From the NCBI RefSeq assembly GCF_009914755.1, contig NC_060928.1: a DNA stretch of 64,000 nt. One strand, given 5' to 3'. The stretch's first letter is position 1, and each line of letters starts with the position of its first letter. Shown in pieces: positions 37,613-44,765 of the stretch. Below the pieces are notes generated by a model. That model was not told where the DNA came from. It saw only the letters and a program-made list of their open reading frames with translations, and searched no databases. This DNA comes from the human T2T-CHM13v2.0 reference genome, Homo sapiens. The position numbers and the translations under genes are program-made.

Positions 37613-38944
37613 ACAGGGAGAGTTTGAAGAACAATAATTCTATAATTAAAGTGTTTTTAGAATAGCCCTCAAGGATCCTCTTTCTATCTTTTATACTACC
37701 AAACTTATAAACATATATGTGGTTTCCAGGATGAGGAACACAATACTTGAGATGGAAAACTAAAGACCGGCTATGAGCTCCAAGGTTGAGGAACATATTT
37801 GCTGAACCCTTTTCCTTAAATTACATTTATAGAAATAGGAAAAATGGAATATCTCCATTAGGCATAATTTAAAAGCACTGAAGAAGTGTAGGGATGTGAA
37901 AACACTTCTAAAAAAGCAAGCTTGGCAAAATACCAACTTTTCTCGAGGAACCAATCCATTCTATTTTTCTGTTTGTTTGTCCCAGGTTCTTAAGCAGCAT
38001 CTGATTTCTAAACTCTTACAAGGGTAGTCTGGATAAAGCACGTTTTATTTTCTCTGTTGAAAACTAAGTATTGCTTAAATGGAGAATCATGCCTTATTTG
38101 GTAGTACGCAAAGGTTTAAGGCATTTTTTTTCCTTAGTTGAGGGATATCAATACAGAAAAGTCTGTCACTCTGTTTTAAAATTTATATAAGCTCAAAGTT
38201 TCAAGTGCTAGTTCATGGGGGAAAGAATTTGTTTATTTTTTGTTTTTGCATTTTCTATGACATCTTTTAGCATAAAGCCTTACAGAGATCATTTTTTTAA
38301 ATAGTAGAAACATAAATGCTTATTGAACTGAGCACTCTAGCCAAGGAAAAACTTTTCATTAATTTTGAGATAAGAGGCAAAAATGAAAGCATATTATAAA
38401 CCTTACTGATTATTTCTTCCTTACTTTGGCTATTGGCCATCTTTTAGTTGAAGCATATACATTTATTAAATGTATTAATAAATACATTAAATTAATAAAG
38501 TCCCATATTAAAGAAGTTTATGGAAAGATCTCTCCTTATGTCTTAGTGTTCTCTTCCAGGAAGAGGGTATACAGACTTTATAGAAAGCAGATATTCCCTC
38601 TTATCTTGTAATATATGTCCTTGTGCAGCATGAGAAGAAAACTTTAAGATCACAGACTAGCCTAAGAAAAATGATTTATCTTTCAGCAAATATTTCTCAT
38701 CCATAATTTACTTTGGCTTACTTCTGTGTCTACAAATGTCTGTTGTAGCATATAAATGAAACTAGTTTCAAACAACTTTTCAGGTGCAATAACAAAATGT
38801 ATGTACCAGAGCTTCTGGATAGCTGAACACATGTCAGTTCCTGGAGGGCGGTGTGCCCAGGGATGGCATGGAAGCTCTGTGCCCCTTCCCCTATGTCTCA
38901 CCCTATGCACCTCTTCATCTGTATCTTTTGTAATATCTTTTATT

Positions 38945-39243
38945 TACTTTTTTTTTTTAGAGACAAGGTCTTGCTCTGTCACCCAGGATGGAGTGAAGTG
39001 GTGCGATCTTGGCTCACTACAACCTCCTCCTCCCAAGTTCAAGCAATTCTCCTGCCTCAGCCTCCCAAGTAGCTGGGATTACCGGCATACACCACCATGC
39101 CTGGCCAATTATTGTATTTTTAATAGAAACGGCATTTTTACAGTGTTGGCCAGGCTGGTCTCGAACTCCTGACATCAAGCTATCCGCCTGCCTCGGCCTC
39201 CCAAAGTGTTGGGATTACAGGCATGAGCCACCGCACCTAGCCT
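38945..39243 (-). mobile_element. AluS inside the 5' R region of the MER21 element
   Basis: Reverse Alu; TSD 'aatatctttta'. Confidence 0.92.
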
Positions 39244-40660: not shown

Positions 40661-43600
40661 AAACCGGAGAGTATAGTGTGAAGGAATTGTTTCATTTTTG
40701 TAGAATGGTGTTATCAGCTTCCTGAGGAACTATTGCTAAAATGGATTATAAGAATGACAAATGTAGGGGCAGTGTCTTTGGTTTCAAATCTTGCAGAGTG
40801 AAGAGCATGTTTGGGTTGATATAGGACCCACAGCTGACCATTTGAACAATCACAGATGGGTATATATGATCCAGATATGTAGGTTATTCCGCAAGGAACA
40901 GCCAGTCTGATAGATTGGATAAAAGCCATTATAAGATCTATTTGAGAAGGTGGACTGTTGAACTCCACCTATAAATGCCAAGTGGAACACCTTACATAAG
41001 GCAGCTGATACAATTCATATGCAAGCCATGTGTGACTGGCTTTATGAGGACATGAATATTCACTCAGTGAATATGTCCATTACCCAGGTCACGGTAAATA
41101 CTCTGGTTAAGGGGACCCCATGTGACATTACTCCTGCAGACTCAAATAGTTCAAGAAGCCTTATCAAATTTGTGGACTGAGTTTCCCCTCATGGATCTCA
41201 CAGATGCTAATAAAAACATTAGGTTAATTAATAAGAGAACAGTGAAAGGCAAAAGGGAGAGTCAAAGACTCATCCCCGGAAGATAGAAATTTTAAAATGG
41301 TTATTAAAAAATAAGGTGAATGAAGAAAACATTGATGGGGTGAAACTAAGAAGAAAAAGAAAGGGGAGAGTCATGGGACTCGTCCCAGCAGAATGGAAAA
41401 CTTTAGATGCTTATTAAGAAATAGAATCAATAAAATAGACATTGATGGGGTTAAGCAAAGGTCTTAATACAACACTATTGTAGGTTGGATGGACCAGAGG
41501 GGGCCCCATCTTGTCCCCCAACATTAAAAGGCCGCAAACCAGTCTGCTGTATTTCTGCCAGCTTGGAGAAATTTAAAAAGCTGGAAGGCAGAGATTACAA
41601 TGAAAAATCAGATCTAAAATTGCCTGGGGCAACAGTCAGGCAGACTAATCGAGATAAAGATTAATAAAAGGGCCAGGGTCCTTGGGCTCAATCCTTGGCT
41701 GGGGACCCAAAGCTTTTTACACAAGAGAGGGTAAAATGACCTGGGGGTAAAGAAGAGAAGATCCTGAAACTAGAACATAAAAATGTAAGAGTTGATAGGA
41801 CTATGGAAGTTGGTATATTTGAAAACACTTTATGTGAAGTGATTGCATCTCTTTTACCTGATTTTTTTTTTTGTGGGAATGAACAAAGTATCTCATTGGG
41901 AAATATTTCTCCTCCCTGGTGCTGTAAAACAGAAGGCATGTAATAATCTGCCCTCAAGCAATATTAATTGGACATGCTAAATGGGAACCAGTGAGATTGC
42001 CCAAGTCCACACAGTGCAGAGTAGAAGCTAGAATGCTGTTATGGATAAATTCTCCACTTGATAAGCCTCTGTGATGCTATTTCCTGGATCTTGTGGCAAA
42101 AGCCTCTGAGCACCTCCCAGCAACATCTACTGGGACTTTGGACTATGGAACTTCCATCTGAGGGGCATTTACTGCTTTGCTGTGAAATGTTAGGTGAAGC
42201 TACCGCTATTAACACCTGAAATACCCATGTTGGCCCAGCGATGTCAGAGAAACATTCTAACAGGGATGGCAGTGCCCAGGAGAGTTCCATAATAAAATGG
42301 ACATGGTTTATCGAGGATCATGCCACCTAAGAACTGCAAGGAGGGGATACTCTTGAGCAGGGTGTTTCTTTTCTCCTGAGACTGACTCTGGAACTGTGTG
42401 AGAAACTGCTGGATTCTACAGTGCCTGATAAATGGCTCTCAACTCATGAGAAAGAGCTACTTAGTTTGTGGCCGGTAATTCCAAGGTAAATGGACACCAT
42501 TGTGTTTGGAAGGCAGCTACTTTGATAAAAGAAGGTAAAAACAGATCTGCTTGGTGGGCTGAATTGCACACTGTTTTTCTAACAGTGATGGAAGAATTGA
42601 TCAATGGTAAAAGCCCCTGAGTTTGGGTGTTTACTGAGCTGTGGGCAGTGTGACCCATGGCCTGGCCATACACTCAGGCAAGAGGGCCATGGAAATTTGG
42701 CCTATTAAATGGATGCACATAGGAGCACTGTTCTATGGAGATTTGAGGGGTGCATTAAAGAAGAACAAGTGAATGCCCATCAGAAGAACTCCCTTCCAGG
42801 TTCAGAAAGTGACTGGAATTGACAAGCAGATATCCCCATGTACTCCCTTGAAGTGGCCACCTGGGCCTTTGAAATGAGTGGATATGGGGGTATTGTAACA
42901 GGGCAGAGATGGGCTGAATGTAGAGATGGTTTTTTTGCACCTTCTCAGGCACAAAATGCCAGAAAGAACTGTTGTGTTTCTCAATAAGAAAGCCAGAGAC
43001 TGCTGACGGCTTTGGGACAGATTCTCTGGTGGGAAGGCCCTGAACATAGCTGGCAAGTGCGACAAATGCTGGTAGCCCTGGAGGCTACAAATGGGTCTTG
43101 ACAGGAATAGACACTGGCTATGGAGTGGATGTTGCTTGCCCAGAAGAAGATGAAAATTCTCTGAGTGCCATAAAAAACCGGAACAGAAGATATTACATGG
43201 ATATAGATGGCTAACCATCAGTTTTTCAGACCAAGGAACACACTGTACAGCCCATAAGAATAGTCCAACAATGGACAAAGAGATATCCACCTAGAGTAAT
43301 AGTTTGATAGAGCAGTAGAGCAGGCAATTGAAACATTGATTGTGTAAAACAGGGGGAGATAAAAGCACAAAGGGCTGGCTCACATGCCTTCCTGTCTGCT
43401 CACACTCAACATGAGCAGGACTAGAGTGTTTCTGCTAGATTTTTTTTCTTTGTTTTTCTGGTTGATCTGGGGAACAGGGAGTTGGGAGGATGCTGGTATG
43501 ACTATGCTATTCTTGCCAAGGGACGAGTACACTGGTATAACAAATGTAAGTTTTTCTTTCTTCCCCAAATCACCTAAAAGAAATTTATTTTTTTCTCCCC

Positions 43601-44765
43601 TGGCTGATGCAGTGGTCCTAGGACCAGGACTGCAATTACAACTGCTGGATTAGCAGGGGTGATTTCTAAGCAAAAACCTGTAACTGTGTTTTGAAACCTT
43701 ATATCAAAATTCCCAAAGGCATGATGGGAGTGGGTTGTGTCTTCATGCTATCTAGAAAAATTGGGGCTATCAGTGAATGCAGCTATATTGCCTGGTGGTA
43801 AAAATAGCTCACTAGTTCTGCACCTATGTAACCTTACCCGGTCTGAATTGGCGTGGACTGAGGAGGAGCTAATTGCTAGACTTGTATTACTACTTGCAAT
43901 GTAGACCGGCACTGTGGTGGTTCTAATTTCTCTTCCAAAGGTGAAAAGGTTTAGGTATTAATGGAGAGAAGGAGAAATAGTAGCTGAGAGTAAATAAATG
44001 AATAAATGAGTTATTAATTGAGAAAAATTCAGTATTACATAACAACTCAAAAGAGTCTCAGAGCAAGAGATGACATTGTCTCTTAGCTTAATTATCCCAG
44101 ATGCCTTAAAGGGTGAAGCTGCGTATTTACTGAGGCCACTCCTGCTTTCGAGACCTGACAAGATTGAGAGGAAACTTGCAACCCTGAGTGGCCTCATCCT
44201 GGAAGACATTCAAACAATATGAAGGATTTGATTAATTGTTAATGATTGTGCATAATATATATATTTTTGAAGTAAAGGCACCATGGTGGAAAACCAGGGA
44301 GTGGCCTGTGGTGTTATGATATACACTGGTTTTAGTCCACAGTTCCTGGCTTATAACTCCTATATCCCTTGTTACAATATTTTCTTTTTTTTATATAATG
44401 TTGGGTATGTTAGGCCTCAGGAGCAAGCCTCTGACCTTCTCCTGCCTTACTTTCACTCTAATGTTTCCCCACTTTCTAATTGTGACGCTTAAGACTCTCA
44501 CAGGAGAGGGTTCCATCCTATATCCTGAGGGAAGGAATGCTGATGTCATGAAGCTTTCATAAAAACCCAAGAGGACAGGGTTCAGTGAGCTTCCGGATAG
44601 CTGAACATGTGGCACTTCCTGGAGGGTGGCGCACCCAGGGAGGGCATGGAAGCTCCGGGCCCCTTCCTTCATACCTTCCCCTGTGGTTCTCTTCATCTGG
44701 ATCCTTTGCAATATCCTTTATAATAAACCAGTACATGTAAGAAAAAAAAAAATATGTACTTACAG

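What the first reader, a model, noticed from the sequence alone, without database searches (positions are those of the whole stretch)
38794..44759. MER21/ERVL element with the structure of a retroviral RNA, apparently retrotransposed by L1
Seen: the 5' LTR begins abruptly at ~38807 ('cagagcttctggatagctgaac'). In the 3' LTR the same point is ~44585, about 26 nt downstream of a TATA-like CATAAAAA (44558-44565) at an Inr-like TCAGT, which is where R should start. The 3' LTR stops 14 nt after AATAAA (44722-44727) at 'atgtaag', where the 5' copy continues into U5, and is followed by A11. The flanks match as a decayed TSD: AAAATGTATGTAC (38794-38806) and AAAATATGTAC (44749-44759). There are no TG...CA outer ends and no 4-6 bp integrase TSD. 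Established: R-U5-internal-U3-R-polyA with a long TSD is the signature of ERV genomic RNA copied by L1 machinery, best known for HERV-W. Inference: this is a full-length L1-processed copy of a MER21-type ERV, which I do not recall being described for this family. It would also map the TSS and polyA site of the MER21 LTR. Standard repeat annotation would probably report just two truncated LTRs.
Basis: partly seen in the sequence, partly recalled or inferred. Interest (0 to 1): 0.8.

Follow-up and report, generated by a model that had tools for sequence, protein, structure and literature searches.

The report
L1-made retrocopy of an ERVL-type retrovirus
This is a dead copy of an ancient endogenous retrovirus that was pasted into chromosome 4 from its messenger RNA by the LINE-1 machinery rather than by the virus's own integrase, and other copies of the same family in the genome were made the same way.

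Summary
Window 38807-44752 reads R-U5-(PBS-like)-internal-U3-R-A11. The 5' LTR lacks U3 and the 3' LTR lacks U5. It starts 24-28 nt after a TATA-like box and ends 14 nt after AATAAA. It is flanked by AAAATGTATGTAC / AAAATATGTAC, with 7 nt exact at the junctions.

Other copies in the same genome settle the boundaries. 29 further LTR copies of this family were examined. Where both pieces aligned they run U3-R-U5, and 11 complete ones end TGTG...CACA with 5-bp duplications. At equal stringency, 18 R ends carry an A-tail and 124 run on into U5. Tails placed elsewhere in the LTR gave 0 hits. The A-tailed copies show a range of 5' truncations. 7 of 17 independent ones start within 5 nt of the same R start. 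Long A-led duplications abut 5 of 11 tested copies, against 1 of 110 cross-paired controls.

Best reading, about 0.9: LINE-1 retrocopy of full-length retroviral RNA, as known for HERV-W. ERVL class is moderately supported. The name MER21 could not be tested. Papers I could search call HERV-W the sole L1-mobilised HERV group, so this looks like a new member of a known kind. Interest is moderate.

The parts
38794..38806 (+). 5' copy of the target-site duplication, AAAATGTATGTAC
   Evidence: TATGTAC is exact against 44753-44759, and the A-run matches the end of the tail. Cross-pair control.
38807..38943 (+). 5' R, first part. The element starts here, with no U3 upstream.
   Evidence: 80% identity to 44587-44721; upstream DNA shows no U3 homology.
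38944..39242 (-). Later Alu insertion (antisense, T-run on the left) inside the 5' R, with its own duplication at 38930-38943 and 39244-39257
   Evidence: junctions read directly; similarity to the Alu at 45004-45147. The name Alu is from recall of the sequence type.
39243..39277 (+). 5' R, last part, including AATAAA and the site where the 3' copy is polyadenylated
   Evidence: family D8: 91% identity to 44707-44741.
39278..39627 (+). U5, ending ...CTACACA. Present only in the 5' LTR.
   Evidence: colinear with U5 of canonical copies; canonical LTRs end at CACA.
39630..39652 (+). PBS-like site, 2 nt after the LTR end. It is complementary to the 3' end of tRNA-Leu(CAA) apart from a 2-nt insertion and decay.
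39653..44306 (+). Decayed internal region. There is no long open frame, and pol-like and dUTPase-like remnants are seen only weakly. A purine-rich stretch lies just before the 3' LTR, read by eye.
   Evidence: ORF list; no Pfam hit; best PDB hit is a retroviral dUTPase.
43725..43901 (+). dUTPase-like open stretch (59 aa)
   Evidence: best of 177,635 PDB sequences is EIAV dUTPase 1duc_A, E=0.45; the homologous ORF of the chrX copy hits only 1duc_A, E=0.061.
44307..44582 (+). U3 of the 3' LTR, starting TGTGGTGTTA, with the TATA-like CATAAAAA at 44558-44565
44583..44741 (+). 3' R, with AATAAA at 44722-44727. It ends 14 nt later, and no U5 follows.
44742..44752 (+). Poly(A) tail, A11
44753..44759 (+). 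3' copy of the target-site duplication, TATGTAC. Its leading A's cannot be told apart from the tail.

Best explanation
A provirus of an ERVL-type family was transcribed from its 5' LTR. Transcription started at the U3/R border, 24-28 nt after the TATA-like box. The RNA was cleaved and polyadenylated 14 nt after the AATAAA in the 3' R. LINE-1 ORF2 protein then used this polyadenylated genomic RNA in trans. It nicked the target at an A/T-rich site (top strand ...AAC|AAAATG...). The T-run primed on the poly(A) tail and the whole RNA was copied in place. A staggered second nick produced a duplication of about 13 bp.

The result is R-U5-PBS-internal-U3-R-A(n). It has no 5' promoter, so it was dead on arrival. 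Later events were a 2-bp loss in one duplication copy, an Alu insertion in the 5' R and heavy decay.

Shown here: the structure, the tail, the duplication, the shared boundaries in other copies, and the contrast with canonical copies. Inferred: that LINE-1 was the enzyme, the nick site, and the age.
For: 1. Structure at the locus: U3 is absent at the 5' end and U5 is absent at the 3' end. A11 sits exactly 14 nt after AATAAA. The flanks repeat.

2. Canonical copies differ. 29 other copies (L002-L030) were aligned with a U3-R piece and an R-U5 piece. All 29 matched the U3-R piece and 28 matched the R-U5 piece. L005 did not, and L002 and L015 matched it only in part. The R/U5 junction reads through in the copies where it could be found. 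11 complete LTRs of about 740-940 bp, longer with insertions, end TGTG...CACA. Their 5-bp duplications match at 4 of 5 positions or better in 7 of 11, against 1 of 110 cross pairs (p=4e-8).

3. The A-tail is specific to this site. A 20-mer at the R end plus A11, with up to 3 mismatches, gave 18 genome hits and 0 for the reversed control. The same 20-mer plus the U5 start gave 124. A11 attached 27 nt upstream in R gave 0, and 20 nt into U5 gave 0.

4. The A-tailed copies are truncated at many different 5' points, a LINE-1 hallmark. They begin at about window 41375, 41656, 43018, 44033, 44551, 44565, 44604 and 44702.

5. Shared 5' end. 7 of the 17 independent loci start within 5 nt of the R start: the window, L037, L053, L054, L060, L075 and L076. 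L060 on chrX is also full length.

6. Duplications are long and A-led: L037 11 nt, L044 10 nt, L076 8 nt, L034 7 nt, the window 7 nt, and L060 11 of 13. In all, 5 of 11 against 1 of 110 cross pairs.

7. Precedent. HERV-W pseudogenes are defined by the same features (Grandi 2016, PMC5016936, passages read).
Against: - The dinucleotide before the duplication is AC, not the consensus TT, and the two duplication copies differ by a 2-bp indel. Only 7 nt are exact.
- The tail is short (11 A).
- No orthologous empty site was examined.
- 6 of the 11 A-tailed copies tested showed no exact duplication of 7 nt or more under my criteria. Two of these have decayed or A-rich candidates (L060, L075).
- Several 5' ends abut later Alu insertions or simple repeats and are uncertain (L056, L051, L035, L045).
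- L069 is rearranged and unresolved.
- LINE-1 itself is inferred from these signatures and not observed.
Confidence: 0.9

Rival explanations
1. An ordinary integrase-made provirus that later lost its 5' U3 and its 3' U5 through two independent deletions, with an A-run next to it by chance.
For: Old elements do suffer deletions. This one is about 20% diverged between its R copies and carries a later Alu.
Against: - Both breakpoints would have to fall within a few nt of the transcript's start and its cleavage site.
- The same two points recur in independent loci.
- A-tails occur only at the R end: 18 hits against 0 and 0 for the two displaced controls.
- The flanks repeat 7-13 nt, instead of the 5 bp seen in canonical copies.
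Confidence: 0.03
2. A copy made from polyadenylated retroviral RNA by a reverse transcriptase other than LINE-1, for example the retrovirus's own enzyme priming aberrantly on the tail, or another LINE clade, and inserted at a chromosome break.
For: The enzyme is not observed directly. The nick-site dinucleotide (AC|AAAA) departs from the LINE-1 consensus.
Against: Poly(A) tail, variable 5' truncation, 7-13 nt duplications and duplications that begin with A-runs (window, L037, L044, L034, L075, L076, L060) together are the target-primed signature of LINE-1, an established point also stated for HERV-W in PMC5016936. From recall, L2-type LINEs do not use poly(A) tails.
Confidence: 0.05
3. An assembly or segmental-duplication artefact that joins parts of two elements.
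For: None found here. Elsewhere, one A-tailed copy on chrX is duplicated as an inverted pair.
Against: The internal region is colinear with other copies of the family from the PBS-like site to U3. The element has one matching pair of flanks. No other copy of the family lies in the window.
Confidence: 0.01

Closest known systems
HERV-W (LTR17/HERV17) processed pseudogenes made by LINE-1 (Pavlicek 2002, recalled because the paper is not held; criteria as restated in Grandi 2016, PMC5016936)
   Same: A 5' LTR reduced to R-U5, a 3' LTR reduced to U3-R, a poly(A) tail, long duplications, 5'-truncated relatives, and no promoter at the 5' end.
   Different: - A different, unrelated family. Here a PBS-like site matches tRNA-Leu, canonical copies have 5-bp duplications, and there is a dUTPase-like remnant. 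HERV-W is a class I group.
- Much older (R copies about 20% apart).
- A smaller share of copies. About 1 in 8 R ends at one stringency are A-tailed, against 135 pseudogenes of 213 non-solo HERV-W elements in PMC5016936.
- Frequent R-only retrocopies here.
Ordinary processed pseudogenes (retrocopies) of cellular mRNAs
   Same: Cap-to-tail copies of a polyadenylated Pol II transcript, made in trans by LINE-1, with a duplication and frequent 5' truncation.
   Different: The template is a retroviral genomic RNA, so the copy looks like a provirus with two clipped LTRs and is easily misread as a damaged provirus.
Canonical proviruses and solo LTRs of the same family
   Same: The same LTR and internal sequence, about 75-84% identical.
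   Different: Canonical copies have complete U3-R-U5 LTRs with TGTG...CACA ends and 5-bp duplications. This copy has neither.

Membership tests
LINE-1-processed ERV pseudogene (HERV-W type criteria, PMC5016936) | The 5' LTR starts at R and lacks U3 | tested here: met
   The element starts at CAGAGCTT, the point 24-28 nt after the TATA-like box in canonical LTRs. There is no U3 homology upstream.
LINE-1-processed ERV pseudogene (HERV-W type criteria, PMC5016936) | The 3' LTR ends at the end of R and lacks U5 | tested here: met
   Canonical copies continue GTGTTTCCCTGAG...; here A11 follows.
LINE-1-processed ERV pseudogene (HERV-W type criteria, PMC5016936) | Poly(A) tail at the cleavage site after AATAAA | tested here: met
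   (A11, 14 nt after AATAAA); tails occur only at this site in the family.
LINE-1-processed ERV pseudogene (HERV-W type criteria, PMC5016936) | Target-site duplication of LINE-1 length, not the 4-6 bp made by integrase | tested here: met
   7 nt exact, 11 of 13 with the A-run. Own pairs 5 of 11 against cross pairs 1 of 110.
LINE-1-processed ERV pseudogene (HERV-W type criteria, PMC5016936) | Insertion at a LINE-1 endonuclease motif (TT|AAAA) | tested here: inconclusive
   The window reads AC|AAAATG. L037 reads TT|AAAAA, and most of the other duplications begin with A-runs. The sample is too small for a motif test.
LINE-1-processed ERV pseudogene (HERV-W type criteria, PMC5016936) | Empty pre-integration site in species that lack the insertion | not testable with these tools
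   No other primate or mammalian genome is held.
ERVL lineage (class III / ERV3) | Primer-binding site for tRNA-Leu | tested here: inconclusive
   Window 39630-39652 matches the reverse complement of the 3' end of a tRNA gene with anticodon CAA (L083; Rfam tRNA 50.7 bits). There is a 2-nt insertion, shared by at least 6 genomic places, and some decay.
ERVL lineage (class III / ERV3) | dUTPase domain (stated for ERVL in Kojima 2018, PMC5753468, passage read) | tested here: inconclusive
   There is no Pfam hit for the window frames or for 45 ORFs of other copies. The best or only PDB hit of two homologous ORFs is the EIAV dUTPase, E=0.45 and E=0.061. A third copy's ORF gave no such hit.
ERVL lineage (class III / ERV3) | 5-bp duplication at canonical integrations (5 bp for class III, 4 bp for class I and 6 bp for class II are recalled) | tested here: met
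   7 of 11 complete LTRs match at 4 of 5 positions or better, against 1 of 110 cross pairs.
   No Dfam or Repbase library is on hand. Kojima 2018 (table passage) lists MER21I with MER21A-C under ERV1 'HEPSI', which does not fit the ERVL-like traits seen here. The RetroTector table of Vargiu 2016 has no chain near this locus (one of its files could not be searched).

The most novel reading that the evidence does not exclude
This ERVL-type LTR family is a second human ERV group that LINE-1 mobilised repeatedly, and this locus is not a one-off. At least 17 independent A-tailed copies were found at one search stringency, which is about 1 in 8 R ends. They include two full-length retrocopies and four R-only retrocopies, made from short transcripts that start and end within a single LTR. 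If undescribed, this contradicts the statement in reviews that HERV-W is the sole HERV group mobilised by LINE-1. It also gives a sequence-only map of the family's transcription start and poly(A) site.
Probability: 0.5. Interest if true: 0.6.

Novelty: new member of a known kind. Interest (0 to 1): 0.5.

Why it matters
- **Annotation.** Copies like this look like damaged proviruses or clipped LTR fragments, but they were never integrated by a retrovirus and never had a 5' promoter. That matters when LTR divergence is used for dating, when copy numbers are used to infer how a family spread, and when LTRs are scored as promoters.
- **Family biology.** The retrocopies mark where transcription started and where the RNA was cleaved, without any expression data. 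The R-only copies suggest that the poly(A) signal in R was often used in the same LTR where transcription began.
- **Field.** Open-access reviews call HERV-W the only L1-mobilised HERV group. A class III family with many such copies would show the process was broader and older.

Tried and rejected
- **Protein families.** Pfam on the three forward frames of the internal region, with stops read as X, on 15 window ORFs and on 45 ORFs of other copies gave no retroviral domain. One search had failed on stop codons. My by-eye reading of RNase H-like and integrase-like motifs is therefore unsupported. The integrase-like ORF gave no PDB hit.
- **tRNA detection.** ARAGORN found no tRNA in L083. Rfam did. 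The gene has an intron.
- **Possible spliced retrocopy.** L054 jumps from about window 39505 to about 43957. The window has GT and AG near those points, by eye. The junction is unique in the genome (1 hit, itself), so a plain deletion is as likely.
- **Census.** A variant R-end pattern added no new loci.
- **Naming the family.** The RetroTector table has nothing near the locus.
- **Literature.** Pavlicek 2002 could not be read.
- **Papers seen.**
  - Search listings.
  - Passages of PMC5537654 (abstract and a table).
  - Passages of PMC5753468, PMC5016936, PMC11359688 and PMC8922424.
  - One supplement search of PMC4724089.
  None describes L1-made copies of MER21 or of ERVL families.
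Full report
**1. What is at the locus**

The element occupies window 38807-44752.
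- It begins CAGAGCTTCTGGATAGCTGAAC.
- The same sequence, CAGTGAGCTTCCGGATAGCTGAAC, occurs at 44583 in the 3' LTR. That is 24-28 nt after the TATA-like CATAAAAA (44558-44565).
- The 3' LTR stops at 44741 (...AATAAACCAGTACATGTAAG), 14 nt after AATAAA (44722-44727).
- A11 follows at 44742-44752, then TATGTAC.
- The 5' copy carries the same ...AATAAACCAGTAGATGTAAG at 39243-39277 and runs straight on into further LTR sequence.

The flanks read AAAATGTATGTAC (38794-38806) and AAAATATGTAC (44749-44759).

The repeat finder pairs 38809-38943 with 44587-44721 at 80% identity, and 39243-39277 with 44707-44741 at 91%. An antisense Alu at 38944-39242 splits the 5' R. It has its own 14-nt duplication.

**2. 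Defining the LTR from other copies**

The window's assembly can be searched. The U3-R part found 1980 first-look candidates, of which 40 were scored. 29 other loci were cut out (L002-L030). I aligned a U3-R piece and an R-U5 piece of the window element to them.
- All 29 match the U3-R piece, starting at about window 44307.
- 28 match the R-U5 piece, up to about 39627. L005 does not, and L002 and L015 match it only in part.

The family LTR is therefore:
- U3, 44307-44582
- R, 44583-44741
- U5, 39278-39627

Complete copies measure about 740-940 bp, or longer with insertions, and end TGTG...CACA. Their flanks repeat 5 bp. The match is 4 of 5 or better in 7 of 11, against 1 of 110 cross-paired flanks (p=4e-8).

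The window element lacks U3 at its 5' end and U5 at its 3' end. Its flanks show no colinear similarity to either (positive control R against R, E=3e-33). No other copy of the family lies in the window.

**3. The same two boundaries recur elsewhere**

Three pattern searches tested where A-tails attach:

| Pattern (up to 3 mismatches) | Genome hits | Reversed control |
|---|---|---|
| Last 20 nt of R plus A11 | 18 | 0 |
| Same 20 nt plus the normal U5 start | 124 | 0 |
| A11 attached 27 nt upstream in R | 0 | 0 |
| A11 attached 20 nt into U5 | 0 | 0 |

An earlier, looser pattern gave 31 hits against 12 for its control. So A-tails attach to this family at one site only, and at this stringency about one R end in eight carries one.

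Two of the 18 hits are an inverted duplicate on chrX, which leaves 17 independent loci. I mapped them onto the window element.

Seven begin within 5 nt of the R start:
- the window element;
- L060 on chrX, which is also full length (R-U5-PBS-internal-U3-R);
- L054, which has a large internal gap;
- four that consist of R alone (L037, L053, L075, L076).

The others begin at scattered points:
- about 44702 (only 39 bp retained)
- about 44604
- about 44565
- about 44551
- about 44033
- about 43018
- about 41656
- about 41375

Some of these ends abut later Alus or simple repeats and are uncertain. L045 and L069 are unresolved.

Three further A-tailed copies came only from the looser pattern (L035, L048, L049).

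**4. Duplications**

Exact duplications that abut the 5' end and follow the tail:

| Copy | Duplication |
|---|---|
| L037 | 11 nt (TGAAAGTAATG, after TT|AAAAA) |
| L044 | 10 nt |
| L076 | 8 nt |
| L034 | 7 nt |
| Window | 7 nt |
| L060 | decayed, 11 of 13 |
| L075 | A-rich, AAACACT |

Under fixed criteria, 5 of 11 have 7 exact nt or more, against 1 of 110 cross-paired controls (p=1.3e-5). Six of the 11 fail that test. L053, L054, L036 and L041 have no clear duplication.

Most duplications begin with a run of A, as expected for LINE-1 nick sites. The window's site reads AC|AAAA, not TT|AAAA.

**5. Mechanism**

A poly(A) tail at the cleavage site, a 5' end at the cap site, colinearity with the RNA, a range of 5' truncations, and long A-led duplications in place of 5 bp are together the signature of target-primed reverse transcription by LINE-1 acting in trans. 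This is the mechanism accepted for HERV-W pseudogenes (PMC5016936, passages read).

I put this at about 0.9. Two independent deletions, another reverse transcriptase, or an artefact together take the remainder.

The copy has no 5' promoter and no open frame, so I assign it no present function.

The two R copies differ at 30 of 157 sites (K2P 0.225). With a recalled neutral rate of about 2.2e-9 per site per year this suggests about 50 million years. The figure is rough. CpG decay inflates it, and so would any difference between the source provirus's LTRs.

**6. What kind of retrovirus**

Evidence for ERVL class is moderate.
- A PBS-like site lies 2 nt after the LTR. It matches the 3' end of a tRNA-Leu(CAA) gene, apart from a 2-nt insertion that at least six genomic places share.
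- Canonical copies have 5-bp duplications. The class rule is recalled.
- Near the 3' end of the internal region, an ORF of the window copy has the EIAV dUTPase as its best PDB hit (E=0.45). The homologous ORF of the chrX copy has it as its only hit (E=0.061). A third copy's ORF did not hit it.
- Against this, Pfam found no retroviral domain in any of 63 translated pieces.

The name MER21 could not be tested. Kojima 2018 lists MER21I with MER21A-C under ERV1. From recall, RepeatMasker files the MER21 LTRs under ERVL.

**7. Novelty**

Seven full-text searches found no paper describing L1-made copies of MER21 or of ERVL families. Subscription papers were not searchable or not held. These include Pavlicek 2002, Costas 2002 and Belshaw 2005, so prior mention cannot be excluded.

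Because LINE-1 can copy any polyadenylated RNA, the finding is a new member of a known kind and not a new mechanism. The family-wide pattern and the R-only retrocopies are its most interesting parts.

Noticed in passing
L037 (chr3), L053 (chr13), L075 (chr16), L076 (chr19); the homologous part of the window is 44583-44741: Four retrocopies consist of R alone (about 150 nt) plus an A-tail. Three have 7-11 nt duplications. They look like copies of short RNAs that started and were polyadenylated within one LTR.
   Followed up: partly
L054 (chr14:35512971-35515997); window equivalents about 39505 and about 43957: An A-tailed copy starts at the R start, runs into U5, then jumps about 4.4 kb to the end of the internal region and on to U3-R. 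The window has GT and AG near the two points, by eye, so it could be a spliced RNA copy. The junction is unique in the genome.
   Followed up: partly
L077/L078 (chrX, about 84.006-84.007 Mb): The 3' end and flank of the full-length chrX retrocopy occur twice in inverted orientation about 600 bp apart. This looks like an inverted duplication made after the insertion.
   Followed up: no
Window 38944-39242: An antisense Alu sits inside the 5' R with a 14-nt duplication, at 38930-38943 and 39244-39257. It shows that the R was already in place when Alus were active.
   Followed up: partly
Window 44767-44975: A long (TTCC)n / (CCCT)n / (CTTT)n microsatellite begins about 8 nt after the 3' duplication. 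Another Alu follows from about 45004.
   Followed up: no
Base just 5' of GAGCTT (window 44586) across copies: This base is T in 21 and G in 6 of 29 canonical LTRs, but G in all 6 other retrocopies that start at R. It may be an extra G copied from the cap (recalled as known for full-length L1-made copies) or it may mark a G-bearing source subfamily.
   Followed up: partly
Window 39630-39652 and at least five other genomic places: The family's PBS-like site carries a shared 2-nt insertion relative to the tRNA-Leu(CAA) 3' end. Pairing with the primer would be interrupted after 9 nt.
   Followed up: no
Window 41244-41460: An internal tandem duplication of about 110 bp. The 84-nt units at 41267-41350 and 41377-41460 are 73% alike.
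   Followed up: no
L069 (chr3:185645879-185648909): A copy of the family's 3' end with the R-end motif present on both strands about 120 bp apart. This rearranged locus could not be classified.
   Followed up: no
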